Shown here: in pieces, positions 4,550 through 64,000 of the stretch
Position numbering within the stretch: position 1 is the first letter of the stretch
Layout: the number at the start of each line of letters is the position of its first letter
NCBI GenBank assembly: GCA_964618645.1
Contig: CAZUBW010000005.1
Coordinates: forward strand, 15,870-79,869
Reading direction: 5' to 3'
Source: an uncultured Bacteroidales bacterium
GTDB lineage: Bacteria; Bacteroidota; Bacteroidia; Bacteroidales; UBA10428
DNA: 64,000 nt
Made by a program: the position numbers and the translations under genes
Notes under the pieces: generated by a model
The model's database searches: none
What the model saw: the letters and a program-made list of their open reading frames with translations, nothing else
What the model was told of the DNA's origin: nothing

Positions 4550-5068
4550 TGCTGGTTGCTGGGTGCTGGGTGCTGGAGGCTGGATACTGGATACTGGATA
4601 CTGGATACTGGATGCTAGATGCTGGATACTGGATGTGCGGGTATTTGGAATTGGGAATTGGGATTTGACTGCTGCTGCCGCTGCTATTGCCACTGGATAC
4701 TGGATGCTAGATGCTGGATACTTGATGTGCGGGTATTTGGAATTGGGAATTGGGATTTGACTGCTACTGCCGCTGCTACTGCCACTGGATACTGGATGCT
4801 GGATGCTGGATGTGCGGGTATTTGGAATTGGGAATTGGGATTTGACTGCTGCTGCCGCTGCTATTGCCACTGGATACTGGATGCTAGATGCTGGATACTT
4901 GATGTGCGGGTATTTGGAATTGGGATTTGACTGCCGCTGCCACTGCCGCTGCCACTGCTGCTGCCGCTTGTCTTGGCTCTTCCTGCTAATTACACAAACG
5001 CTTGCAGATTCCCGCAGACTATTCCTTCATTCCTTCATTCTTTCATTCTTTCATTCTTCATTACGCCG
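4550..5068. repeat. Composite satellite: four copies of an 85-92 bp higher-order unit, each built from (CTGGATR)n + TGTGCGGGTATTTGG + (AATTGGG)n + GATTTGACT + (GCYGCY)n, followed by (TTCATTCY)n
   Basis: Direct reading. The motif GATGTGCGGGTATTTGGAATTGGG recurs near 4633, 4725, 4810 and 4905. CCACTGG unit starts are at 4690, 4782 and 4867. The array begins 9 nt after the stop of the upstream gene and abuts the stop (5061) of the convergent gene. Confidence 0.95.
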
Positions 5069-14656: not shown

Positions 14657-14685
14657 TTCCGGAAAGAGTCAGGAAATATCGATTA

Positions 14686-14730
14686 TTAGCTGTTGGCCAT
14701 TAGCCATTAGCCTTTGGCCAATAGCTATTA
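14686..14730. repeat. Short heptamer array (TAGCCAT/TTGGCCA variants)
   Basis: ttagctgttggccattagccattagcctttggccaatagctatta, read directly. Intergenic. Confidence 0.8.
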
Positions 14731-50331: not shown

Positions 50332-50417
50332 GAGTTGTGAGCTATGAGCTATGAGCTATGAGCTATGAGCTATGAGCTGCGAGCTATGAGTTGCGAGCTA
50401 TGAGCTTTGAGCGATGA
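50325..50417 (+). repeat. Heptamer array (GAGCTRT)n, about 13 units
   Basis: gagccaa gagttgt gagctat x4 gagctgc gagctat gagttgc gagctat gagcttt gagcgat gagctaa, read directly. Confidence 0.95.
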
Positions 50418-50473
50418 GCTAAAAGCAGGAACAAAGATAATATTTTGATCAGCATGGTGAAGGAAAGTTATCC

Positions 50474-51178: not shown

Positions 51179-51204
51179 TTTTTGATAATAAAATTGCTGG
51201 AAAA

Positions 51205-51281
51205 GCTGCGAGCTGTGAGCTGTGAGCTGCGAGCTGTGAGCTGTGAGCTGTGAGCTGTGAGCTGCGAGCTATGAGATGTGG
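51205..51281 (+). repeat. Heptamer array (GCTGYGA)n, about 11 units, same orientation as 50325..50417
   Basis: gctgcga gctgtga gctgtga gctgcga gctgtga x4 gctgcga gctatga, read directly. Confidence 0.95.
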
Positions 51282-51342
51282 AGTCTGACTGTTACTGGTA
51301 CTACCACTTTATTAGCTGCTGGTTATTGGTCTTTGCTATTGA

Positions 51343-51387
51343 CTAACGGCTAATAGCTCACGGCTCAAAGCTAGCAGCTCAAAGCTC
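51343..51387 (-). repeat. Inverted partner array (CTCRNAG)n
   Basis: ctaacgg ctaatag ctcacgg ctcaaag ctagcag ctcaaag ctc is the reverse-complement flavour of the GAGCTGT family. Confidence 0.85.
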
Positions 51388-54403: not shown

Positions 54404-55057
54404 ATGAGAAAATCGTTGTTTTTATTTGCATTGCCCATGCTGGCAGTAGCGCTGTTTATTGGTTGCGAAGGCGACGAAGGACCGACTGGTCCGCAAGGCG
54501 AACAAGGTGAGCAGGGCATTCAGGGAGTCCAGGGAATACAGGGTGAACAAGGTGAGCAGGGCGAACAAGGCGAACAGGGCATCCAGGGCATCCAGGGCGA
54601 AACCGGAACTGCCAATGTTATATACTCGGAATGGGCCTCTCTTTCAGGAGGCTGGAGAGATACAGTACTGAGCTCCAATAATTTAAAGGTTAAACACATT
54701 ATTGCCGCTGGTGTTACCGCTGACATATTGAATGAGGGAGTTGTTTTGTGCTATCACAAGAAGTTATATACCTTATCCGGTAATTATTCCTTAACATATC
54801 AATTGCCTTTGACGGGTTATTTAAGTGGGGATGGGATTTACACTATTGACTACATGTTGAGCCCCGGAAAAATTTTCATTTCCTGTTTTACGCACGATAA
54901 TACAGCAAGTTTTACGCTTCCTGCAATTGCAGTGAATAATCTGTTCCGTTATGTCATTATACCCGGCGGAGTTGCCGCTACAGCAAAGAAATCCACACTC
55001 GATTTTACCAAATTGAGCTACGAAGAAGTATGCGAATTGTTTGACATTCCTGAATAG
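54404..55057 (+). CDS. Collagen-like triple-helix-repeat lipoprotein with globular C-terminal domain
   Basis: 217 aa. Lipobox LFIGC followed by 16 consecutive G-X-Y triplets (GDE GPT GPQ GEQ GEQ GIQ GVQ GIQ GEQ x4 GIQ GIQ GET GTA), then a ~140-aa non-repetitive domain. Confidence 0.8.
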   Translation: MRKSLFLFALPMLAVALFIGCEGDEGPTGPQGEQGEQGIQGVQGIQGEQGEQGEQGEQGIQGIQGETGTANVIYSEWASLSGGWRDTVLSSNNLKVKHIIAAGVTADILNEGVVLCYHKKLYTLSGNYSLTYQLPLTGYLSGDGIYTIDYMLSPGKIFISCFTHDNTASFTLPAIAVNNLFRYVIIPGGVAATAKKSTLDFTKLSYEEVCELFDIPE

Positions 55058-55185: not shown

Positions 55186-56385
55186 ATGATTCATACAGCA
55201 GGTAATCGAGGAGCAGGTATCCGGTCGGATTGTTTTGTGAGCCTCCAAACGGAGTCGGTTCACGAAACTGAAATTCACATCACCAGCAAGGTGAAAAGCA
55301 TGTATGGACATTCCATACTGGAATTGTGCCACGATATGCTGGAATTCTACAATGTCACCCGGGCAAAGCTCGAAATTGAAGATACGGGGGCCTTACCTTT
55401 TACCCTGGCTGCCCGGCTTGAAGCAGTTATCAGGAAGTGTATCAATACCGATAAGGACTACCTGTTACCCCTTCATCCAAATCACCCTTATGCAACACCC
55501 GGGGACCTCGACCGGTTTACCCGGTTATACCTGCCCGGCAACAATCCCAAGCTCATGATCAATGCCGGCATCTATGGGGCCGACGGCATCATACTCGACC
55601 TCGAAGATTCGGTGGCGCCGGAGCGGAAATACGAAGCCCGTTTCCTGGTCAGAAACGCCCTTCGTTGTGTTGATTTTTACGGCGCCGAACGCATGGTGCG
55701 CATCAACCAGCTTCCGGAAGGCATCAATGATCTGCCTTTTTGCGTGGAACATGGTGTTCACGTCATCCTGGTCCCCAAGTGCGAAGTGGCAGAACAGGTG
55801 TTGTCGGTTGATAAAGCCATTGCCGATATATTGGACGGGAAGAACGATTCCATTTACCTGATGCCCATTATTGAAAGTGCAGCAGGGGTGATGCATGCCC
55901 ATGAAATTGCCTGTTCGTCGAAACAGGTTGTTGCCCTGGCCATCGGACTCGAAGATTACACGGCCGATATAGGCGCCCAACGCACAACCGAAGGAAGCGA
56001 ATCGTTTTATGCCCGTGCTGTGATTGTGAATGCGGCAAGGGCTGCCGGAATCCAGCCTATCGATTCGGTATTTTCCGATGTGGATGATATGGAAAGCCTG
56101 GCCGGAACGGTAAAAAAGTCTAAAGCCCTGGGATTTGCAGGCATGGGGTGTATACATCCGCGACAGGTTAAGGTGATCCGGGAAAATTTCATGCCCGATA
56201 CAGGGGAGTGCGACAAGGCCCGGAAAATTGTGCTGGCATATGAAGATGCCGAAAAAGAAGGTTCCGGCGTTGTTTCCCTCAATGGCAAAATGATTGATCC
56301 CCCGGTGGTGAAACGTGCGCTGAAAACCATCGAAAGGGCCGCAAAGTATGGATTGATACCCGAAGACTGGAGGACTGCACCATGA
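55186..56385 (+). CDS. citE: Citrate lyase acyl-carrier (gamma, CitD) fused to citryl-ACP lyase (beta, CitE)
   Basis: The N-terminal ~95 aa resemble CitD (AG.IRSDCFVSL around the prosthetic-group Ser; DTGALPFTLAARLEAVIRK versus E. coli DKGALDCILRARLEA). The rest is HpcH/CitE-like (RLYLPGNNPKLM, IILDLEDSVAP, MPIIESA, GLEDYTAD). The ATG at 55186 is preferred over the GTG at 55168. Confidence 0.8.
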   Translation: MIHTAGNRGAGIRSDCFVSLQTESVHETEIHITSKVKSMYGHSILELCHDMLEFYNVTRAKLEIEDTGALPFTLAARLEAVIRKCINTDKDYLLPLHPNHPYATPGDLDRFTRLYLPGNNPKLMINAGIYGADGIILDLEDSVAPERKYEARFLVRNALRCVDFYGAERMVRINQLPEGINDLPFCVEHGVHVILVPKCEVAEQVLSVDKAIADILDGKNDSIYLMPIIESAAGVMHAHEIACSSKQVVALAIGLEDYTADIGAQRTTEGSESFYARAVIVNAARAAGIQPIDSVFSDVDDMESLAGTVKKSKALGFAGMGCIHPRQVKVIRENFMPDTGECDKARKIVLAYEDAEKEGSGVVSLNGKMIDPPVVKRALKTIERAAKYGLIPEDWRTAP

Positions 56386-57947
56386 AAGAAAAACTAGTAC
56401 AAAATGCAGCCGGCAGATGGGTACCTATTGAAATCAACGGTGAAAAAGCAATACCCTACCAGGGTGTCGGTGTTTACCGTCCACAGGGTGTTCGCCATGC
56501 GCCCAGGTTGTTTTCCAATGCTGATTATCCCGCCGACGGGAATAAAGAAGTTGCCTCGCTGAAAGAAGCGCTGCAAAAAGCCGGTCTGAAAAACGGCATG
56601 ACCATTTCGACCCATCATCACTTCCGTGAGGGCGACCTGGTGGCCAACAGGGTGTTTGATGCCGCGGCCGAACTGGGCATTAAAAACCTATGCTGGTTTC
56701 CCTCGGCTTCGTTCCCCTGTCATGCCTACCTGCTGAAATACCTCGATGACGGCACCATCAGCCACATCGAAGGCAGTATGAACGGTCCCCTGGGCCGCTA
56801 TTGTTCCGAAGGGAAAATGAAGAAAACGGCGGTGCTGCGTTCGCATGGCGGCCGTTACCAGACCATTCAGGATGGTGAAGTAAAAATTGACATAGCAGTA
56901 ATCGGCGCCGGCTGTGCCGATTCGTTTGGCAATGCCAACGGGGTTACGGGTCCTTCGGCCAGCGGCACGCTGGGTTTTGCCCTGGGCGATGCGCAATATG
57001 CCGACCGCGTAATTGTGGTTACCGACAACATGGTTCCCTTTCCGTGTGTTCCCTGGCAGATACAGGGCAACTATGTTGATTATACCGTAAAGGTCGACCG
57101 GGTAGGCATTCCCGAGAAGATCGTTTCGGGAACCACCGAGGTGACGAAGAGTCCCGACCGTCTGCTCCTGGCCGAACTTACCGCCCGCTTTTGCGAGGTG
57201 ACCGACATTATCCGCGACGGGTTTTCGTTTCAGGCCGGCGCGGGTGGAACTTCGTTGTCGGTTGGTAATTACTTTGCCGATATCATGCGAAAGAAAGGCA
57301 TTAAGGCCCGCTTTGCCCGTGGCGGCAGTAATAAATATTTGGTGCAGATGCTCGAAGAGGGCCTGGTGGAATATATCCTGGACGGGCAGACCTTTGACCT
57401 TGACGGGGTGCGGTCGATACGCGACAATCCCCGGCATGTGATGACCAGTCCCTTTACCAGCTATAACTACCACAGCAAGGGCAATATTGCCGGCATGGTG
57501 GATGTGGTGGTGCTGGGGGCCACCGAAATTGACCTGAACTTTAATGCCAACGTGGTGACGCATTCCGATGGTTACCTGTTGCACGGCATTGGCGGCTGGC
57601 AGAACTGCTTGTTTGCCAAAACGGTTATACTGCCGGTTCCCCTGTTCAGGGACAGGATTCCGGTTGTCCGCGATGAGGTTACCACGCTGTGCGGTCCGGG
57701 TGAGCTGATAGATGTGGTGGTCACCGAAAGGGGAATAGCCATTAACCCGTTACGTACTGACCTGATTGAGAAAGCAAAAGGTTCGGGATTGCCGTTGAAA
57801 ACACTGGAACAACTGAAGGAAGAGGCTGAGCAGATTTGCGGAAAGCCCCGTCCACCAGTTTTTACCGATAAAATTGTGGCCGCCATCAAGTGGGTGGACG
57901 GAACGGTGATTGATGTGGTGAGGGAAGTAGCGAGCTACGAGCTATGA
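56382..57947 (+). CDS. citF: Citrate lyase alpha subunit (citrate CoA-transferase)
   Basis: 521 aa. ISTHHHFREGD block and length typical of CitF. 4-bp overlap with the upstream gene. The last five codons (ASYEL) and the stop lie inside a heptamer array. Confidence 0.85.
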   Translation: MKEKLVQNAAGRWVPIEINGEKAIPYQGVGVYRPQGVRHAPRLFSNADYPADGNKEVASLKEALQKAGLKNGMTISTHHHFREGDLVANRVFDAAAELGIKNLCWFPSASFPCHAYLLKYLDDGTISHIEGSMNGPLGRYCSEGKMKKTAVLRSHGGRYQTIQDGEVKIDIAVIGAGCADSFGNANGVTGPSASGTLGFALGDAQYADRVIVVTDNMVPFPCVPWQIQGNYVDYTVKVDRVGIPEKIVSGTTEVTKSPDRLLLAELTARFCEVTDIIRDGFSFQAGAGGTSLSVGNYFADIMRKKGIKARFARGGSNKYLVQMLEEGLVEYILDGQTFDLDGVRSIRDNPRHVMTSPFTSYNYHSKGNIAGMVDVVVLGATEIDLNFNANVVTHSDGYLLHGIGGWQNCLFAKTVILPVPLFRDRIPVVRDEVTTLCGPGELIDVVVTERGIAINPLRTDLIEKAKGSGLPLKTLEQLKEEAEQICGKPRPPVFTDKIVAAIKWVDGTVIDVVREVASYEL

Positions 57948-58053
57948 GCTGTGAGCTGTGAGCTGTGGGCTGTGGGCTGTGAGCTGTGAGCTTTGAGCTG
58001 TGAGCTTTGAGCTGTGAGCTATGAGCTGTGAGCTATGAGCTGTGAGCTGTGAG
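57932..58053 (+). repeat. Heptamer array (GAGCTGT)n, about 17 units
   Basis: gagctac gagctat gagctgt x3 gggctgt x2 gagctgt gagcttt gagctgt gagcttt gagctgt gagctat gagctgt gagctat gagctgt x2, read directly. Confidence 0.95.
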
Positions 58054-58081
58054 GAAGTAAGAAAAATGATTAAAAATTTGA

Positions 58082-58198
58082 CTCGCAGCTCGAGGCTCGC
58101 GGCTCGCGACTAACAGCTCAAAGCTCGCAGCTAAAAGCTCACAGCTAAAAATTGATTCAGCATTTGGCTCAAAGCTCGCGGCTCGCAGCTCGCAGCTA
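58082..58198 (-). repeat. Inverted heptamer array (CTCRCAG)n; partner of 57932..58053
   Basis: ctcgcag ctcgagg ctcgcgg ctcgcga ctaacag ctcaaag ctcgcag ctaaaag ctcacag ... ctcaaag ctcgcgg ctcgcag ctcgcag. It is separated from the forward array by about 28 bp. Confidence 0.95.
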
Positions 58199-58232
58199 AG
58201 AATGGATACCATGAGTAAAGCAGTATACAACA

Positions 58233-59432
58233 ATGTCCAAACCAACTATCGTAATCATGCCCGGCGACGGAATTGGTCGCACGGTGATGCAGGAAGCCCT
58301 CAGGGTGCTTGAAGCTTCAGGATTTGAAGCCGGTTATGTTGAAGCCGATATCGGCTGGGATTTCTGGTGCCGCGAGGGCAATGCCCTTCCCGAAAGAACG
58401 GTTAAACTGCTGGCGGAACATAAGGTGGGTCTTTTTGGTGCCATCACGTCGAAACCCAAGGACGAAGCCGCCGCCGAACTGGCCGATCACCTGAAAGGCA
58501 AGGGATATGTGTACGCCAGTCCTATAGTGGGCATGCGCCAGCATTTTAACCTCGATATATGCATCAGGCCCTGCCATACCTACAAGGGTAACCCGTTAAA
58601 TTTCATCCGCAGGGGTATTCACGGCGAAATAGAGGAACCCGAAGTGGATGTGGTGATTTTCCGGCAGAATACCGAAGGACTTTATTGCGGTGTTGAATGG
58701 AACCATCCGCAGGGTGTGGTTTACGAAGCACTGAAAAGTCATAAAAGCTTTGTGAAAAATTTCGGTACGGTGCCGCCCGAAGAAATAGCTGTTTCCACGC
58801 GTATTTTCACCCGCAGGGCTACCGAAAGAATACTGCGGGCTGCGTTTGAGCATGCCGCACAATACGGTTACCGGTCGGTTACCCTGTGCGAAAAGCCCAA
58901 CGTGATACGCGAAACATCGGGCATGATGTATAATATGGCCCGGCAGATGCAACGCGAGTATCCGGCTATTGAGCTATGGAATACCAACATTGACGCACAG
59001 ATGATGTGGCTGACCAAAAATCCCGAGGACTATGGTGTGATGGTGGCGGGGAACATGTTCGGTGACATTGTTTCAGACGGGTTTGCCGGTTTGATTGGCG
59101 GGCTGGGTTTTGCCTGCAGTGCCAATATAGGCGACCAGGTAGCGGTTTTTGAACCTACACATGGCTCAGCACCAAAGTACGCTGATTATCCTGTTTCTAT
59201 TGTGAATCCCATAGCCATGATCGAGTCGGCCTGCATGATGCTCGACCACCTGAAGCAGCCGGAAAAGGCGGCGAAAATCCGTAAGGCTGTGGCTGCAGTT
59301 ATTGCCGGGGGCAGGGTACGGACATACGATATGCTGAAGATGAAAGGGAGTCCGGATGTGTTGCGCCATGGCGCAGCATCTACCAGGGAGATGGGGGATG
59401 CGGTGATTGAAGAATTGCTGAAGAGAGAATAG
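58233..59432 (+). CDS. Isocitrate/isopropylmalate dehydrogenase-family beta-decarboxylating dehydrogenase (substrate not assignable)
   Basis: 399 aa. IVIMPGDGIGRTV, IRPC, FRQNTEGLY, GNMFGDIVSDGFAGLIGGLG, HGSAP. Confidence 0.85.
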   Translation: MSKPTIVIMPGDGIGRTVMQEALRVLEASGFEAGYVEADIGWDFWCREGNALPERTVKLLAEHKVGLFGAITSKPKDEAAAELADHLKGKGYVYASPIVGMRQHFNLDICIRPCHTYKGNPLNFIRRGIHGEIEEPEVDVVIFRQNTEGLYCGVEWNHPQGVVYEALKSHKSFVKNFGTVPPEEIAVSTRIFTRRATERILRAAFEHAAQYGYRSVTLCEKPNVIRETSGMMYNMARQMQREYPAIELWNTNIDAQMMWLTKNPEDYGVMVAGNMFGDIVSDGFAGLIGGLGFACSANIGDQVAVFEPTHGSAPKYADYPVSIVNPIAMIESACMMLDHLKQPEKAAKIRKAVAAVIAGGRVRTYDMLKMKGSPDVLRHGAASTREMGDAVIEELLKRE

Positions 59433-59434
59433 AA

Positions 59435-59587
59435 AGGGACAAGGGACAAGGGACAAGGGACAAGGGACGAGCGGCAGTAGCAGTGGCAGTAGCAGCGGCA
59501 GCGGCAGTGGCAGTGGCAGTAGCAGTGGCAGTAGCAGCGGCAGTGGCATACTACACAACTCTTATCTCACAGCTCGCAGCTCGTAGC
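59435..59587. repeat. Composite array: (GGGACAA)x5 + (GGCAGY/AGCAGY)n + CTCACAGCTCGCAGCTCGTAGC
   Basis: Read directly. It starts 3 nt after the stop codon at 59432. Confidence 0.95.
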
Positions 59588-59680
59588 TTTTTCAAGACTG
59601 CATGACTGCACGACTAAAAAGACATAGAAGACCAGAAGACAATTATCTACACTGATTGAAACAACAAAAAAATACAACCC

Positions 59681-60289
59681 ATGCAGGAAATACTGACATT
59701 ATGGCCGGAACTGGAATGGATTCAGAATCCGGATCTCCGGGTAAAGGTGGCCGCCACCTGGGCATTGGCCCTGCGAAAAAGTGCGCTCACTGCCGGTGAT
59801 CTGAGCCGCATTCCGTTTACCTTACTGGCCGGGCCCGACCTGAAGGTAAGCTTTATGGACCACAAGCGGGCAGTGGTGCACATAGCCCGTGAAAGCGGGT
59901 TGAAGTTCAGGGAATTTTTCGGCACCGAAATGCCGGTTGATATGGATGTGCTGATTGCCGGCGCCATATTGGCTGATGTAGGCAAACTGCTGGAATATGA
60001 AAAAGACAAGAGCGGAAAGTGTGTCCAGGGAAAGTACGGAGCCTACCTGCGACACCCTTTTTCGGGGGTTTCACTTGCCGAACAATGCGGCGTACCGGCC
60101 GAGGTATGCCATATAATTGCAGCCCATGCCGCGGAGGGCGACCTCGTAAAGCGTACAACTGAAGCCTATATTGTGCATCATGCGGATTTTATGACGTTTC
60201 TGCCTTTTAAGAGCCAAGAGCCAAGAGCCAAGAGACAAGACAGGGACGAGGGACAAGTGACGAGTGACAAGCAAAAGAAGCAAACATGA
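59681..60289 (+). CDS. HD-domain protein (metal-dependent phosphohydrolase fold)
   Basis: 202 aa. MDHKRAVVHIA ... AILADVGK ... HIIAAHAAEGD ... IVHHADF. The C-terminal ~25 aa (SQEPRAKRQDRDEGQVTSDKQKKQT) are encoded by a heptamer array. Confidence 0.6.
   Translation: MQEILTLWPELEWIQNPDLRVKVAATWALALRKSALTAGDLSRIPFTLLAGPDLKVSFMDHKRAVVHIARESGLKFREFFGTEMPVDMDVLIAGAILADVGKLLEYEKDKSGKCVQGKYGAYLRHPFSGVSLAEQCGVPAEVCHIIAAHAAEGDLVKRTTEAYIVHHADFMTFLPFKSQEPRAKRQDRDEGQVTSDKQKKQT
60210..60272 (+). repeat. Heptamer array (GAGCCAA)x3 / GGGACGA / GGGACAA / GTGACGA variants inside the 3' end of the HD gene
   Basis: gagccaa gagccaa gagccaa gagacaa gacaggg acgaggg acaagtg acgagtg acaagc, read directly. Confidence 0.9.
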
Positions 60290-60411
60290 AAATTATTGTT
60301 GACATTTATTAGAGCGATGTCCCCCTCTGGAGGGGGCTGGGGGAGGAAAGTCAAGTATCAAGTAATCGATAATGAATATTGAAAAGGAATGAAGAAGTAA
60401 AGCAGCAAACC

Positions 60412-62346
60412 ATGACAATCATTGAAAAAATAGTAGCGGAGCATTTGAGAAATGGAAGTGGCAGCGGCAGTGGCAGTAGTAGTCAAATCTCCAATCCCGA
60501 ATCTCAAAACACACACATCCAGCATCCAGCATCCAGTATCCAGCATCCATTACCCAGTGGCAGGGTGAAGCCCGGGGACATAGTGGATGTGTTTATTGAC
60601 GTGCGGCTGGCACGCGATTTTGGCGGTGCCGGCGTGGTGAAAAATTTGCAGCAGTATAACCTGCCCATCGCCGACCGCTGCAAAACCTTTTTTACATTCG
60701 ACTGCAATCCTACGGGGTCTGATCAGCAATATGCCACCAACCAGCAGAAATGCCGCCTTTTTGCCCGGGAACATCAGATTGATGTTTACGACATTAACCA
60801 GGGTATCGGTACGCACCTGGCCATTGACCAGGGACTGGCAGTTCCGGGATCGACCCTGGTTTCAACGGATTCTCATGCCAATATGCTGGGAGCCATTGGT
60901 GCCTTCGGACAGGGCATGGGCGACAGGGATATTGCCGCAGCCTGGTCGCGCGGATCGGTATGGTTCAGAGTGCCCGAAACGGTAAAGATCACGCTTACCG
61001 GTGAGCGGCCCGAAAACATTTCGGCCAAAGATATTGTACTTAACATGCTGAAATTTTTCGGCGCTGACGGACTATTGGGTTACGCGGTTGAAATGTATGG
61101 CGAGGAAACAGAAATGCTTACCCTTGATGAGCGCATCACCATTTCGTCGATGGCTACCGAAATGGGCGCTATTGCGCTGCTTTTCCCGCCTTCGTCAGCT
61201 GTCATTGACTATTGCACCGAACGATCGTACCAGTTGATCAATCCCGTTTACGCCGACCCCGATGCCCGCTATGCCAAAACCATTGAGCTGGACATCGGAT
61301 CGTTCACGCCTGCTGTTTCGCTTCCCGGACAACCTCACCATGTAGTTCCGGTGAGTGACCTGGACCGGGTGAAAATCGATTCGGCTTTTGTGGGCAGTTG
61401 TACCAACGGGCGTCTCGAAGATATGAAGGAGGTTGCTCAGCTGCTGAAGGGCAGGAAAGTCGCCCCGGGTGTAATGCTTAAAATTGTTCCCTCCACCGAT
61501 GAAGTCTGGAATACCTGCCTGAAACTGGGCTACCTCGAAATATTCAAATCGGCCGGTGCGCTAGTGGGAAATGCTGGTTGTGCGGGGTGCGCATCGGGAC
61601 AGATTGGTCAGAACGGGCCCGGTGAAGTGACCATCAGCACCGGTAACCGCAATTTTGCAGGAAAGCAGGGGAAAGGCGACGTTTACCTGGCATCGGTTTC
61701 CACGGCAGTGGCCTCCGCCATCGCGGGGTATATCACCACGGCCGGCCAGATACCCGATCATCCGCTGATATTTGAGGCAAAAGCTGGTAAAGCTGTTTCA
61801 ACTGCCGGTTCCCAACCGGCAAGTAGCGGAGCCGGAAAGGGGAAAACGCAAAAACCCCTTATCATCGAAGGAAAGGTGTGGCTGATCCCGCGCAATAACA
61901 TCGATACCGACATGATTTACCACAACCGCCACCTGGCAGTCACCGATATCAGTGAAATGGGCCGTTATGCGCTGGGAAACCTGCCCGGCTGGGAAGATTT
62001 TTCACAAAAGGCAGAACCCGGGGATATTCTTATTACAGGAAAAAATTTTGGTTCGGGCAGTTCACGGCAACATGCGGTGGATTGTTTCAGCGCGTTGGGC
62101 GCCCAGGCTATACTGGCCGAGTCGTTTGGTGCGATATACGAGCGAAATGCCATCAATGCCGGGTTCCCGGTACTGACCTACACAAGCCTTGAAGAACTGA
62201 AACTTGCTGATCGCGACAAGGTAACCATCGACCTCGAAGGCGGCACTATTACCAACCAGCGAAATGGCAAAACAGCTGTGATAACCAGATTTTCGGATAT
62301 ACAAAAGAAGATATATAAAGCAGGCGACCTGTTGCTTGCTCCCTGA
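60412..62346 (+). CDS. Aconitase-family hydro-lyase with large (LeuC/HacA-like) and small (LeuD-like) subunits fused; carries an in-frame repeat insertion near the N-terminus
   Basis: Start MTIIEKIVAEHL is the canonical LeuC/HacA N-terminus. STDSHANMLGA, GSCTNGR, GCAGCASG (Fe-S cysteines). A linker is followed by the swivel domain GKNFGSGSSRQHA. Confidence 0.85.
   Translation: MTIIEKIVAEHLRNGSGSGSGSSSQISNPESQNTHIQHPASSIQHPLPSGRVKPGDIVDVFIDVRLARDFGGAGVVKNLQQYNLPIADRCKTFFTFDCNPTGSDQQYATNQQKCRLFAREHQIDVYDINQGIGTHLAIDQGLAVPGSTLVSTDSHANMLGAIGAFGQGMGDRDIAAAWSRGSVWFRVPETVKITLTGERPENISAKDIVLNMLKFFGADGLLGYAVEMYGEETEMLTLDERITISSMATEMGAIALLFPPSSAVIDYCTERSYQLINPVYADPDARYAKTIELDIGSFTPAVSLPGQPHHVVPVSDLDRVKIDSAFVGSCTNGRLEDMKEVAQLLKGRKVAPGVMLKIVPSTDEVWNTCLKLGYLEIFKSAGALVGNAGCAGCASGQIGQNGPGEVTISTGNRNFAGKQGKGDVYLASVSTAVASAIAGYITTAGQIPDHPLIFEAKAGKAVSTAGSQPASSGAGKGKTQKPLIIEGKVWLIPRNNIDTDMIYHNRHLAVTDISEMGRYALGNLPGWEDFSQKAEPGDILITGKNFGSGSSRQHAVDCFSALGAQAILAESFGAIYERNAINAGFPVLTYTSLEELKLADRDKVTIDLEGGTITNQRNGKTAVITRFSDIQKKIYKAGDLLLAP
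60454..60549 (-). repeat. One unit of the 4550..5068 composite satellite, opposite orientation, embedded in frame in the CDS
   Basis: The reverse complement GGATGCTGGATACTGGATGCTGGATGCTGGATGTGTGTGTTTTGAGATTCGGGATTGGAGATTTGACTACTACTGCCACTGCCGCTGCC has the same module order as the 4.6-kb unit. It is translated as GSGSGSGSSSQISNPESQNTHIQHPASSIQHP. Confidence 0.85.
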
Positions 62347-62372
62347 AAGAAAAAAACACCGGAGGACTTTAC

Positions 62373-64000
62373 ATGCCAGCACAAACTTTTGCAGAAAAGA
62401 TTTTCGGAGCACCGGCAGGTGCCATTGTTTTTCATCGGCCCGACCTGGTATTGAGTCACGATAATACCGCCAGTATCGAAAGCACTTTTCGAAAAATGGG
62501 GGGTGACCGTGTTTACGATGCCAGTCAACTGGTTATTGTACTCGATCACAATGCACCACCCACCAACAGCAAGCTGGCCAATGACTATTTCCAGATACGA
62601 AGTTTTGCGCGCAGCCAGGGTGTTAAGCGGTTTCACGATGCCGGTGAGGGCATCTGCCACCAGCTGATGAGCAGGTATGCCCTTCCGGGCATGGTGATTG
62701 TGGGAAGCGACAGCCATACATGCACTGCCGGGGCATTTAATGCTTTTGCTGCGGGAATCGACCGGACTGAAACAGCCGGCATCTGGAAAACGGGTGAAAC
62801 CTGGTTCAGGGTGCCGGACTCCTTAAAAATAGTATTGCATGGCAGGTTACCCGAGCATGTTTATGCCAAGGACCTGGCCTTGTATATCATGGGCATGATC
62901 GGATCAAGCGGAGCCGACTACCTGTCGGTTGAGTACCATGGCGACGGTGTTAAAACGCTTGGCATAGCCGACCGGATGACCATTGCCAACCTGGCTTCGG
63001 AAATGGGAGCCAAAAATGCTGTTTTCCCTGCCGATGAAGTGTTGTCAGCTTTTTTGGGAAAGGAAGTCGCTGGTGTATGGGCCGACAAAGAGGCTCATTA
63101 CACCAGAACCCTTGAAATTGATATGACGGAACTGTACCCGCTGGCAGCCTGTCCGCACCATGTGGATCATGTGAAAAGCGTTGACGAGGTAGCCGGAATA
63201 CCCATAGGCCAGGCATTGATAGGTACCTGCACCAATGGCAGAATTGAGGACCTGCGCGAAGCTGCTGCCGTACTCAAAGGAAAGCGGGTGGCCGGAGATG
63301 TGCAGTTGCTGGTTGCCCCGGCATCGCGGGATATTTATTTACAGGCTGTAAGCGAAGGATTGGTGGAAATATTTCTGCAAGCCGGCGCCAATATGCTTAG
63401 TCCTGCGTGCGGCCCATGCCTGGGAACAGGACAGGGGATACCGCCCGACGGTATTAACGTTATTTCCACCGCCAACCGTAATTTCCTGGGGCGAATGGGC
63501 AATCCCAAAGCCTCAATATACCTGGCTTCGCCTGCCACTGTGGCGCTTTCCGCCTTAAATGGTTGCATTACTTCGCCCATGATGCGCCGTATCAGGGTTC
63601 AATATCCATATCATGCCGAACAGACCGCTACCGTGGTGATTGCTGAATCGGATAACCGATATAAAAAAGGTGTATGGGATTACCATGATGCAAATAACCT
63701 GAATACCGATCAGCTGTTTGCCGGAAATCTTACCTATGAGATCAACAGCTCACAGCCCGAGAAGATCGTTCCCCATTTGCTGAAAGGTTTTGATGTTAAC
63801 TTTTCCGGAAAAGCACAACAGGGCGATGTCATCCTATGTGGTGAGAACTTTGGATGTGGCAGTTCCAGGGAACATCCTGCGGCAGGTTTGGCTTACCTGG
63901 GAATAGCTGCCGTCATTGTCAGGTCGGTATCGCGTATCTTTTTCCGGTCGGCCATTAACCAGGGATTGCCTGTGTTGGTAGTTCCCGGAGCCGTGGAAGC
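62373..64000 (+). CDS. Second fused aconitase-family hydro-lyase (large plus small subunit); runs off the right edge
   Basis: My own translation from ATG 62373: MPAQTFAEKIFGAPAGAIVFHRPDLVLSHDNTAS ..., GSDSHTCTAG, GTCTNGR, SPACGPCLG, later GENFGCGSSREHPA. Open to base 64000, and absent from the ORF track because no stop lies in the window. Confidence 0.85.
   Translation, partial: MPAQTFAEKIFGAPAGAIVFHRPDLVLSHDNTASIESTFRKMGGDRVYDASQLVIVLDHNAPPTNSKLANDYFQIRSFARSQGVKRFHDAGEGICHQLMSRYALPGMVIVGSDSHTCTAGAFNAFAAGIDRTETAGIWKTGETWFRVPDSLKIVLHGRLPEHVYAKDLALYIMGMIGSSGADYLSVEYHGDGVKTLGIADRMTIANLASEMGAKNAVFPADEVLSAFLGKEVAGVWADKEAHYTRTLEIDMTELYPLAACPHHVDHVKSVDEVAGIPIGQALIGTCTNGRIEDLREAAAVLKGKRVAGDVQLLVAPASRDIYLQAVSEGLVEIFLQAGANMLSPACGPCLGTGQGIPPDGINVISTANRNFLGRMGNPKASIYLASPATVALSALNGCITSPMMRRIRVQYPYHAEQTATVVIAESDNRYKKGVWDYHDANNLNTDQLFAGNLTYEINSSQPEKIVPHLLKGFDVNFSGKAQQGDVILCGENFGCGSSREHPAAGLAYLGIAAVIVRSVSRIFFRSAINQGLPVLVVPGAVE

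What the first reader, a model, noticed from the sequence alone, without database searches (positions are those of the whole stretch)
60454..60549. A full unit of the intergenic composite satellite is inserted in frame into a conserved aconitase-family enzyme
The protein starts with the canonical LeuC/HacA N-terminus MTIIEKIVAEHLRN and resumes with the canonical GRVKPGDIVDV. In between are 32 codons (GSGSGSGSSSQISNPESQNTHIQHPASSIQHP). Their DNA is one unit of the 4550..5068 satellite in reverse orientation: (GGCAGY)n, CAAATCTCCAATCCCGAATC, (ATCCAGY)n. The insertion is 96 bp, a multiple of 3, has no stops, and leaves both flanks in frame.

This shows that the repeat family is (or was) mobile or expandable, and that it can be exapted as a peptide linker. 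It may also make the enzyme length-variable through slippage.
Basis: seen in the sequence. Interest (0 to 1): 0.65.

Follow-up and report, generated by a model that had tools for sequence, protein, structure and literature searches.

The report
Translated microsatellite insertion in an aconitase-family enzyme
A piece of the short-repeat DNA that fills this bacterium's intergenic spaces sits in frame inside a conserved metabolic enzyme, where it probably encodes a floppy surface loop; near-identical strains differ by having or lacking it, so it looks like a tolerated, unstable passenger with no shown function.

Summary
Window 60454-60549 lies in frame in a 644-aa fused LeuC/LeuD-type aconitase-family gene (60412-62346, +). 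Its reverse complement matches one unit of the 4550-5062 satellite, with the same module order (hexamers, degenerate heptamer "core", ATCCAGY heptamers).

Against orthologues the net insertion is 35 codons (60454-60558). Ninety of 95 other orthologous loci keep an invariant 5-residue loop here. Only one Bacteroidales clade has an expanded loop. All its members carry (GGCAGY)n, giving Gly/Ser. The window, L001 and L025 carry the full composite with a shared in-gene core variant.

That points to one old insertion followed by repeated loss of the heptamer part, though short-patch recombination between lineages is not excluded. Public metagenomes hold three in-frame alleles: the composite, an 84-nt deletion and a 75-nt deletion.

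AlphaFold2 predicts residues 16-48 as disordered, between the N-terminal helix and the first strand. The N-terminal codons show only synonymous changes, so the gene is probably read from ATG 60412 through the insert.

No evidence was found for transposition, an adaptive role or frameshift switching. One puzzle remains: the insert is more conserved between species than synonymous sites in the same gene.

The parts
60412..62346 (+). Host gene: a 644-aa aconitase-family hydro-lyase with fused LeuC-like and LeuD-like domains. The three Fe-S cysteines (C330, C390, C393) are invariant.
   Evidence: Pfam PF00330 plus PF00694. NCBIfam NF001614, 390 bits against a cut-off of 385. Closest solved structures are 4kp1 and 4kp2. 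Invariant columns.
60412..60453 (+). Conserved N-terminal helix codons, MTIIEKIVAEHLRN.
   Evidence: M1-I7 are 90% or more conserved, and E5, K6 and H11 are invariant in 61 orthologues. Codons 2-7 carry only synonymous differences among six insertion-bearing lineages. AF2 predicts a helix at residues 3-10.
60454..60483 (+). Hexamer module (GGCAGY)n, read as Gly-Ser repeats. It is present in every member of the insertion-bearing clade.
   Evidence: TRF period 6. Orthologue N-termini.
60484..60515 (+). 'Core' module (QISNPESQNTH), a degenerate heptamer array. It is homologous to the (GGGAATT)n-containing core of the satellite on the opposite strand.
   Evidence: 26 of 36 positions match the intergenic core (my own ungapped comparison of the two cores listed). 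31-33 of 36 match the in-gene cores of L025 and L001. Alignments.
60516..60558 (+). Heptamer module (ATCCAGY), about 6 units. The 21-nt period gives IQHPASS IQHPLPS.
   Evidence: TRF period 7/14/21. Pattern search. Word depth up to 18,000 against 27 for the gene in run X1 shows the unit is very abundant in the community.
60556..60564 (+). Right-hand leftover of the hexamer tract (AGTGGCAGG; codons S-G-R). It overlaps the last degenerate heptamer unit by 3 nt (60556-60558). The heptamer modules therefore sit inside a hexamer tract.
   Evidence: The 75-nt deletion allele reads GGCAG-CGG-CAGTGGCAGG GTG, a seamless hexamer tract. L025 has AGCAGCAGC at the same place.
60481..60564 (+). The segment missing in the 84-nt (28-codon) in-frame deletion allele of otherwise near-identical strains.
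   Evidence: A joint 60480>60565 is seen at full gene depth in X2, X3, X4, X5 and X6, with 1 mismatch in the next 369 nt. L081 shows the same junction.
4550..5062 (-). Intergenic composite satellite lying between convergent genes. About 4 units of heptamers, core and hexamers, in the opposite orientation to the in-gene copy. In the matching frame it would translate to GSSSGSSSQIPIPNSKYPHIKYPASSIQYP.
59473..59548 (+). Intergenic (GGCAGY)12.7 array about 0.9 kb upstream, in the same orientation as the in-gene hexamers. A possible recombination partner.
   Evidence: L002 has the same arrangement.

Best explanation
A composite microsatellite has been copied, in frame, into the codons for the short loop between the N-terminal helix and the first beta strand of a fused LeuC/LeuD-type aconitase-family enzyme. 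The composite is a (GGCAGY)n hexamer tract enclosing two heptamer arrays. It belongs to the same repeat family that fills intergenic spaces in this uncultured Bacteroidales lineage.

Shown:
- The homology to the satellite, the exact site, and the in-frame state.
- The expansion is restricted to one clade.
- The core variant is shared across three species.
- Deletion alleles exist.
- The loop is predicted to be disordered.

Inferred:
- The insertion happened once, in or near the ancestor of the clade. The likely route was recombination or template switching between repeat tracts, not transposition.
- The gene is translated from ATG 60412 straight through the insert, giving a Gly/Ser/Pro/Gln-rich disordered surface loop that the enzyme tolerates.
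- The only selection that need be invoked is the enzyme's own selection against frameshifts and stops.
- The insert decays by deletion between the hexamer tracts on either side (the 84- and 75-nt alleles, and hexamer-only species) and by hexamer slippage.

On this reading it is a passenger, not a device. The unexplained DNA-level conservation listed in the Against line is the main caveat.
For: - Homology: score 102 against a null mean of 16.8, maximum 62. The satellite translated in the matching frame gives a near-identical peptide.
- Site: 90 of 95 other orthologous loci have V at position 17. Only L001, L025, L002, L003 and L007, plus the window, are expanded. P0004-P0008 are expanded as well.
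- Phylogeny: the expanded sequences form one clade in an NJ tree built without the insert.
- Single origin: the in-gene cores of the window, L001 and L025 differ at 3-5 of 36 positions. They differ at 7-10 of 36 from intergenic cores (window in-gene versus window intergenic counted by hand).
- Alleles: composite in X1, X8 and X7; 84-nt deletion in X2-X6 and L081; 75-nt deletion in X13 and X21-24. All are in frame.
- Structure: pTM 0.80; residues 16-48 have pLDDT below 50, between helix 3-10 and strand 57-61. The fold matches 4kp1 and 4kp2.
- Translation: codons 2-7 vary only synonymously in six lineages.
- Not a hairpin element: RNA z-score +2.34.
- Rarity: of 159 period-6/7 arrays in 162 sequences, the only ones inside a real gene are at this site.
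Against: - There is no protein-level evidence that the insert is translated. Two automatic gene calls (P0001, P0002) start downstream of it.
- The insert is more conserved between species than a neutral passenger should be. Its DNA identity is 0.80-0.89 and its third-position identity 0.85-0.88, against 0.51-0.63 at four-fold sites and 0.48-0.78 at third positions elsewhere in the gene. Part of this may come from free choice of register when aligning repeats.
- The composite has a patchy distribution (two subclades, with hexamer-only sisters). That needs either at least 4-5 independent losses or recombination between lineages.
- Whether the hexamer tract came before the heptamer modules cannot be decided.
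Confidence: 0.7

Rival explanations
1. Repeated, independent insertion or exchange. The in-gene hexamer tract acts as a homology 'landing pad', so the heptamer modules were gained more than once or passed between lineages by short-patch recombination. On this view the composite was not inherited from one ancestor.
For: - The composite is scattered: window/L001 in one subclade and L025 in the other, each with hexamer-only sisters.
- The insert is far more similar between species than synonymous sites are.
- Third positions of codons 1-14 match at 12/14 between the window and L025.
- L001's copy carries an extra palindrome module that is also seen in other genomic copies of the family.
- A same-orientation hexamer array lies 0.9 kb upstream.
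Against: - In-gene cores share a variant (CCCGWATCTCAAWACACACAC) that was not seen in the intergenic cores sampled, and those are very variable.
- The flanking codons 52-90 show no raised identity between the window and L025 (0.56).
Confidence: 0.15
2. The insert has been exapted. The disordered Gly/Ser/Pro/Gln loop, or the DNA/RNA that encodes it, has a function: for example tethering, partner binding, or a site for whatever recognises these arrays genome-wide.
For: - All three codon positions in the insert are conserved above the synonymous level.
- The heptamer count is kept at about six units in three species.
- The mRNA segment is unusually unstructured.
Against: - Near-identical strains lack 25-28 of the codons and reach comparable depth in the same kinds of bioreactor.
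- Most clade members have only 8-15 Gly/Ser residues.
- Amino-acid differences in the core are mostly non-synonymous (S/T/P, E/V, N/Y).
- 90 of 95 other orthologues manage with a 5-residue loop.
Confidence: 0.08
3. It is a contingency (phase-variation) locus. Slippage of the 7-nt units near the 5' end would switch the enzyme on and off by frameshift.
For: A tract of five to six heptamer units lies 105 nt into the ORF. Heptamers change the reading frame unless they slip in threes.
Against: - No out-of-frame joint at gene depth was seen in the 17 runs laid.
- The only non-multiple-of-three joint (skips 38) has a depth unlike the gene's in X1 and X4 and is flagged as unplaced.
- All alleles and species are in frame.
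- The gene is a core metabolic enzyme in a citrate lyase / isocitrate-dehydrogenase-family cluster.
- Logan contigs drop rare variants, so this test is weak.
Confidence: 0.04
4. The insert is not translated. The real start is downstream (GTG at V52, or TTG within the insert), and the conserved ATG plus 14 codons is a relic.
For: The gene callers began P0001 at GTG (V52) and P0002 at a TTG inside the insert.
Against: - Codons 2-7 show six synonymous and no non-synonymous differences among six insertion-bearing lineages.
- E5, K6 and H11 are invariant in 61 orthologues.
- Every allele keeps the frame between the ATG and V52.
- L081's upstream part is probably a chimeric unitig joined through the hexamer array.
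Confidence: 0.03

Closest known systems
Rickettsia palindromic elements (RPEs) inserted in frame in protein-coding genes (as summarised in PMC10969869)
   Same: Both are dispersed repeat families found in intergenic DNA and, in frame, inside conserved metabolic genes. Both are read through as extra peptide at a structurally tolerant place and are retained across species.
   Different: RPEs are palindromic MITE-like elements of about 150 bp, and they have inserted in many different genes. This element is a mosaic of hexamer and heptamer tandem arrays with no hairpin (z = +2.34). It was found in a gene at only one site among 159 arrays examined.
Long simple sequence repeats / heptanucleotide arrays of bacteria (Mrazek 2007 as cited in PMC4679880; TAACTGA arrays, PMC4679880; GGGAATC and GGGGAYT arrays of Xanthomonas and Nostoc, PMC4692102; cyanobacterial STRR)
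   Same: Both are abundant tandem heptamers, almost all intergenic, with several different units side by side and with length and sequence variation between close relatives. The satellite core contains (GGGAATT)n, close to the Xanthomonas GGGAATC unit.
   Different: Those arrays are described as intergenic. Units whose length is not a multiple of three are rarely found in coding sequence. Here two heptamer arrays are carried inside an ORF, kept in frame by their total length (75 nt), and nested in a hexamer tract.
Simple-sequence contingency loci of Haemophilus, Neisseria and Campylobacter (PMC2651432, PMC4235727)
   Same: Both have a tandem repeat tract near the 5' end of an ORF, with length polymorphism between strains.
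   Different: Contingency loci switch surface or restriction genes on and off by frameshift. Here every allele seen is in frame, and the host is a core metabolic enzyme.
Archaeal-type isopropylmalate/homoaconitate isomerase large subunits (M. jannaschii MJ0499 4kp1, MJ1003 4kp2) and small subunits (3vba, 2pkp)
   Same: The host protein shares their fold and the Fe-S cysteine motifs.
   Different: The host has its large and small subunits fused into one chain. It sits in a cluster with citrate lyase and an isocitrate-dehydrogenase-family gene. It carries the 35-codon loop expansion that the solved structures and 90 of 95 orthologues lack.

Membership tests
Aconitase / 3-isopropylmalate dehydratase large-subunit family (NF001614, PF00330) fused to a LeuD-type swivel domain (PF00694) | Profile match above the curated cut-off | tested here: met
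   NF001614 scores 390.4 bits against a cut-off of 385. PF00330 scores 273.8 against 28.7. PF00694 scores 54.4 against 22.8. The equivalog models (LEU2, HacA_Meth, aconitate hydratase PRK07229) all fall below their cut-offs, so the substrate is not assigned.
Aconitase / 3-isopropylmalate dehydratase large-subunit family (NF001614, PF00330) fused to a LeuD-type swivel domain (PF00694) | Three cysteine ligands of the 4Fe-4S cluster | tested here: met
   C330 (GSCTNGR), C390 and C393 (GCAGCASGQ) are invariant in 61 orthologues. Their role is assigned from established knowledge of the family.
Aconitase / 3-isopropylmalate dehydratase large-subunit family (NF001614, PF00330) fused to a LeuD-type swivel domain (PF00694) | Fold | tested here: met
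   AF2 pTM 0.80. Foldseek hits 4kp1 at E = 9e-36 with target TM-score 0.86, and 3vba with target TM-score 0.87.
Aconitase / 3-isopropylmalate dehydratase large-subunit family (NF001614, PF00330) fused to a LeuD-type swivel domain (PF00694) | Catalytic activity and substrate (citrate, homocitrate or isopropylmalate) | not testable with these tools
   Only the context is available: citrate lyase genes, an isocitrate/isopropylmalate-dehydrogenase-family gene and a paralogous aconitase-family gene are adjacent.
In-frame MITE / RPE-like elements | Dispersed multi-copy family that also occurs in intergenic DNA | tested here: met
   There is a satellite at 4550-5062 and a second composite in L001 at 1190-1256. 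Many variant hexamer-core-heptamer junctions appear in the metagenome unitigs.
In-frame MITE / RPE-like elements | Palindromic or terminal-inverted-repeat structure able to form a hairpin | tested here: not met
   RNA fold of 60440-60580 gives z = +2.34; 199 of 200 shuffles fold at least as well. The sequence shows no terminal inverted repeats.
In-frame MITE / RPE-like elements | Target-site duplication, or insertion in many unrelated genes | tested here: not met
   The only duplication at the borders is the hexamer tract itself. No other genuine in-gene copy was found among 159 arrays.
Simple-sequence contingency locus | Tandem short-unit tract inside or just upstream of an ORF | tested here: met
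   TRF finds period 6 (60453-60477) and period 7 (60516-60549).
Simple-sequence contingency locus | Copy-number variants that shift the frame and switch the gene off | tested here: inconclusive
   Only in-frame alleles were found at gene depth in the 17 runs laid. These are Logan contigs, which drop rare variants.
Bacterial long SSR / heptanucleotide array families | Head-to-tail heptamer units, mostly intergenic, variable between relatives | tested here: met
   Arrays lie in 7 intergenic regions of the window (gene map). Related MAG loci hold up to 49 bp of such arrays per kb.

The most novel reading that the evidence does not exclude
The composite is not junk. These hexamer/heptamer mosaics would be a functional genome-wide element of this uncultured Bacteroidales lineage, for example a protein-binding or recombination-organising sequence, conserved at the DNA level. 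One copy would have been kept inside a coding sequence because the DNA or RNA element itself is under selection. That would explain why its third codon positions are far more conserved between species than synonymous sites elsewhere in the gene.
Probability: 0.1. Interest if true: 0.7.

Novelty: new variant of a known kind. Interest (0 to 1): 0.45.

Why it matters
- It is a clean natural case of intergenic microsatellite DNA carried in frame through a core metabolic enzyme. That includes units of 7 nt, which are normally excluded from coding sequence. It comes with a datable history (one clade) and living presence/absence alleles.
- It marks a tolerant insertion site in LeuC/HacA/aconitase-type enzymes, in the loop between the N-terminal helix and the first strand.
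- It gives a simple length marker (644, 619 or 616 aa) for tracking strains of an uncultured Bacteroidales in anaerobic digesters.
- It shows how such repeats mislead gene callers about start codons.
- It points to a lineage whose intergenic DNA is packed with hexamer, heptamer and mini-palindrome repeats. I found no description of this lineage's repeats in the literature I could search.

Tried and rejected
- **Assembly artefact:** rejected. Independent unitigs from three studies reproduce the composite allele.
- **Hexamer tract born in place from ancestral Ser-Gly codons:** no support. Canonical orthologues mostly use TCN GGR, not AGC GGC.
- **Larger insertions in orthologues with very long tblastn spans (L013, L040, L052, L075, L091, L114, L121, L123):** these are just the adjacent paralogous aconitase-family gene.
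- **Other in-gene arrays (L008, L017, L019/L096, L027, L042):** these were spurious antisense or upstream stop-free stretches, or a weak chance repeat.
- **Interdomain linker (residues 458-478), also disordered and 7 residues longer in the clade:** its DNA contains no such array.
- **Rfam:** only a tRNA was found in the window.
- **JGI metagenome scan:** no member of the insertion-bearing clade; the best hit was 75% identical.
- **Metatranscriptome runs X21-24:** they hold a related strain with the 75-nt deletion allele. Their contigs start inside the hexamer tract and may include DNA, so they say nothing firm about transcription or translation of the insert.
- **The 8 differences of the 84-nt deletion allele in 60409-60480:** these could not be read out.
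- **Literature:** a full-text search for heptamer arrays in Bacteroidales found nothing.
Full report
**1. The observation**

The ORF at 60412-62346 (+) encodes 644 aa. It begins MTIIEKIVAEHLRN, continues GSGSGSGSSSQISNPESQNTHIQHPASSIQHP (60454-60549), and resumes LPSGRVKPGDIVDV. The intergenic stretch 4550-5062 is a composite satellite. TRF finds 7-nt and 6-nt arrays there, nested in higher-order units of 85, 92 and 177 nt, about four copies in all.

The reverse complement of the 96 nt aligns to 4785-4871 with score 102. For 984 random 96-nt windows the mean score was 16.8 (sd 3.3) and the maximum 62. The forward strand scores 11. The module order is the same in both: (GGCAGY)n, a 'core', then (ATCCAGY)n. 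In the window, three consecutive ATCCAGY units occur only at these two places. Translated in the matching frame, the satellite units read GSSSGSSSQIPIPNSKYPHIKYPASSIQYP, nearly the in-gene peptide.

**2. The host gene**

Pfam finds Aconitase (PF00330) plus Aconitase_C (PF00694). NCBIfam NF001614 ('aconitase/3-isopropylmalate dehydratase large subunit family') scores 390 bits against a cut-off of 385, and no equivalog model passes. The profile alignments start at residue 51, so they skip the insert.

The closest solved structures are the M. jannaschii isomerase large subunits 4kp1/4nqy and 4kp2, and the small subunit 3vba. The three Fe-S cysteines are invariant.

The gene sits in a cluster:
- a citrate lyase beta subunit fused to its acyl carrier protein, and CitF;
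- an isocitrate/isopropylmalate-dehydrogenase-family gene;
- an HD-domain gene;
- this gene;
- a paralogous fused aconitase-family gene.

The closest relatives are Bacteroidales MAGs from bioreactors, digesters and sediments.

**3. Boundaries and distribution**

The canonical orthologue is 601 aa and reads MTIIEKILASHSGKxxVxPGEIVDV. In 90 of 95 other orthologous loci the V is at position 17. Only one clade, 77-89% identical to the window protein, has an expanded loop:
- Hexamer-only, giving 8-15 Gly/Ser-rich residues: L002, L003, L007 and P0005-P0008.
- Full composite: the window, L001 (86-89% identical) and L025/P0003 (81-83% identical).

Against the canonical loop the net insertion in the window is 35 codons, 60454-60558. 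An NJ tree built without the insert makes all expanded sequences one clade with two subclades. The composite occurs in both: window and L001 in one, L025 in the other.

**4. One origin or several**

The in-gene cores of the window, L001 and L025 differ at 3-5 of 36 positions and share CCCGWATCTCAAWACACACAC. The intergenic cores (window 4635-4847, L001 1190-1225) differ from the in-gene cores at 7-10 of 36 (plus my own hand count for the window pair). Cores seen as loose ends in metagenome unitigs are very diverse.

All three in-gene composites end in a leftover of the hexamer tract, so the heptamer modules lie inside a hexamer tract. I conclude that a single old insertion, followed by repeated deletion of the heptamer modules, is the most likely history. 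Short-patch recombination between lineages cannot be excluded. Third positions of codons 1-14 match at 12/14 between the window and L025, but codons 52-90 match at only 0.56.

**5. Living polymorphism**

Logan unitigs show three in-frame alleles:
- **Composite.** Exact in X1 (60375-60538) and X8 (60395-60545). In a different study it appears as a 235-nt unitig of X7 that spans 60456-60690 with 8 mismatches.
- **84-nt deletion (60481-60564, 28 codons).** At full gene depth in X2-X6, with 1 mismatch in the following 369 nt. The same junction is in L081/P0001, which is 97% identical.
- **75-nt deletion.** Reads GGCAG-CGG-CAGTGGCAGG, in X13 and in the metatranscriptome-labelled runs X21-24.

The predicted proteins are therefore 644, 616 and 619 aa. 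No out-of-frame joint at gene depth was seen. Logan contigs would miss rare variants, so that absence is weak evidence.

The upstream part of L081 is probably a chimeric path through the hexamer array. The ATCCAGY tract reaches a word depth of 18,000 against 27 for the gene in X1, so these units are extremely abundant in the community.

**6. Is it translated, and where does it sit**

Among six insertion-bearing lineages, codons 2-7 differ at six codons and every difference is synonymous. E5, K6 and H11 are invariant in 61 orthologues. Every allele preserves the frame. This argues that translation starts at 60412 and runs through the insert. It is indirect evidence, and two gene callers chose downstream starts.

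AlphaFold2 (61-sequence alignment, pTM 0.80) gives pLDDT below 50 for residues 16-48, with no secondary structure, between helix 3-10 and strand 57-61. The only other long low-confidence stretch is the interdomain linker at 458-478. Its DNA holds no such array.

**7. How it evolves**

The segment is not hairpin-forming: the RNA z-score is +2.34. There are no terminal inverted repeats and no target duplication apart from the hexamers. In the gene's orientation two of three frames are stop-free, in the insert and in the satellite units alike, so an in-frame, open insertion is not very improbable.

Differences in the core peptide are mostly non-synonymous (S/T/P, E/V, N/Y), so nothing indicates selection on the peptide.

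One result is unexpected. The insert's DNA identity between species (0.80-0.89) and its third-position identity (0.85-0.88) are well above those of four-fold sites (0.51-0.63) and of third positions elsewhere in the gene (0.48-0.78). Free choice of register when aligning repeats inflates this, and the core alone has only 11 codons. It still points to one of three things: homogenisation by slippage, exchange between lineages, or a DNA-level constraint. I leave it unexplained.

**8. Rarity**

I found 159 period-6/7 arrays of at least 24 nt in the window plus 161 related loci. The only ones inside a genuine gene are the three at this site.

**9. Comparison with what is known**

In effect, the closest analogue is the in-frame Rickettsia palindromic elements (PMC10969869). 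This element fails the palindrome and many-targets criteria, so it is not a member of that family.

In sequence type it belongs with bacterial long simple sequence repeats and heptanucleotide arrays (PMC4679880, PMC4692102). Those are described as intergenic.

It resembles contingency loci only in having a 5'-proximal tract. No frameshift alleles were seen.

I rate it a new variant of a known kind.

**10. Verdict**

The insertion is real, well-bounded and old, still polymorphic, and very probably translated. It is most likely a tolerated passenger. 'Mobile' and 'exapted linker' are not supported; 'length-variable' is supported. Interest is moderate (0.45). The wider repeat landscape of this lineage, and the excess conservation of the insert, are the parts worth following up.

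Noticed in passing
L001 2188-2217 (in-gene); L001 1293-1338; L007 2403-2422, 2488-2507, 3278-3297; L012 11306-11326; L090 3877-3896, 9306-9326; L100 610-630: A 20-nt perfect palindrome, CCTGCCTGCCGGCAGGCAGG (REP-like), sits nested inside heptamer arrays in related Bacteroidales MAGs. A 30-nt variant lies in frame inside L001's in-gene composite, adding TGLPKPRRRQV. The window has none (0 matches).
   Followed up: partly
window 60308-60346: TAGAGCGATGTCCCCCTCTGGAGGGGGCTGGGGGAGG, just upstream of the gene, has word depth about 1,500 against 27 for the gene in run X1. It is therefore another dispersed repeat in the community. L007 has two copies with the GC palindrome nested inside. The window has a single copy.
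   Followed up: partly
window 4550-5062, 14685-14730, 50338-50421, 51204-51387, 57931-58197, 59434-59615, 60209-60271: Seven intergenic regions of the window carry side-by-side arrays of different heptamers (TGAGCTA, AGCTGTG, GAGCTGT, AAGGGAC, AAGAGCC and others) and of hexamers. The same array types recur at orthologous intergenic positions in L001, L002, L003, L007 and L025. I found no description of this for Bacteroidales in the searchable literature.
   Followed up: partly
window 60209-60289: The last 26 residues or so of the HD-domain protein (KSQEPRAKRQDRDEGQVTSDKQKKQT) are read from the AAGAGCC/AGGGACG heptamer arrays. The gene's C-terminal tail is therefore repeat-derived too.
   Followed up: no
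window 55186-64000: The gene cluster holds a citrate lyase beta subunit fused to its acyl carrier protein, CitF, an isocitrate/isopropylmalate-dehydrogenase-family gene, an HD-domain gene, and two paralogous fused aconitase-family genes (about 30% identical to each other). The second starts at 62373 and runs off the window.
   Followed up: partly
window 54404-55057 (array 54500-54598); L002 53-140: A small ORF has a collagen triple-helix repeat (Pfam PF01391) encoded by 9-nt tandem units. Similar 9-nt arrays occur in related loci.
   Followed up: no
P0001 (L081 177-1958) and P0002 (L001): Automatic gene calls for two close orthologues start downstream of the conserved ATG, at GTG = V52 and at a TTG inside the insert. 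This cuts off the conserved N-terminal helix. L081's first 170 nt look like a chimeric unitig joined through the hexamer array.
   Followed up: yes
window 61780-61850 (residues 458-478): The linker between the LeuC-like and LeuD-like domains is 7 residues longer in the insertion-bearing clade than in canonical orthologues, and it is also predicted to be disordered. Its DNA holds no such array.
   Followed up: yes
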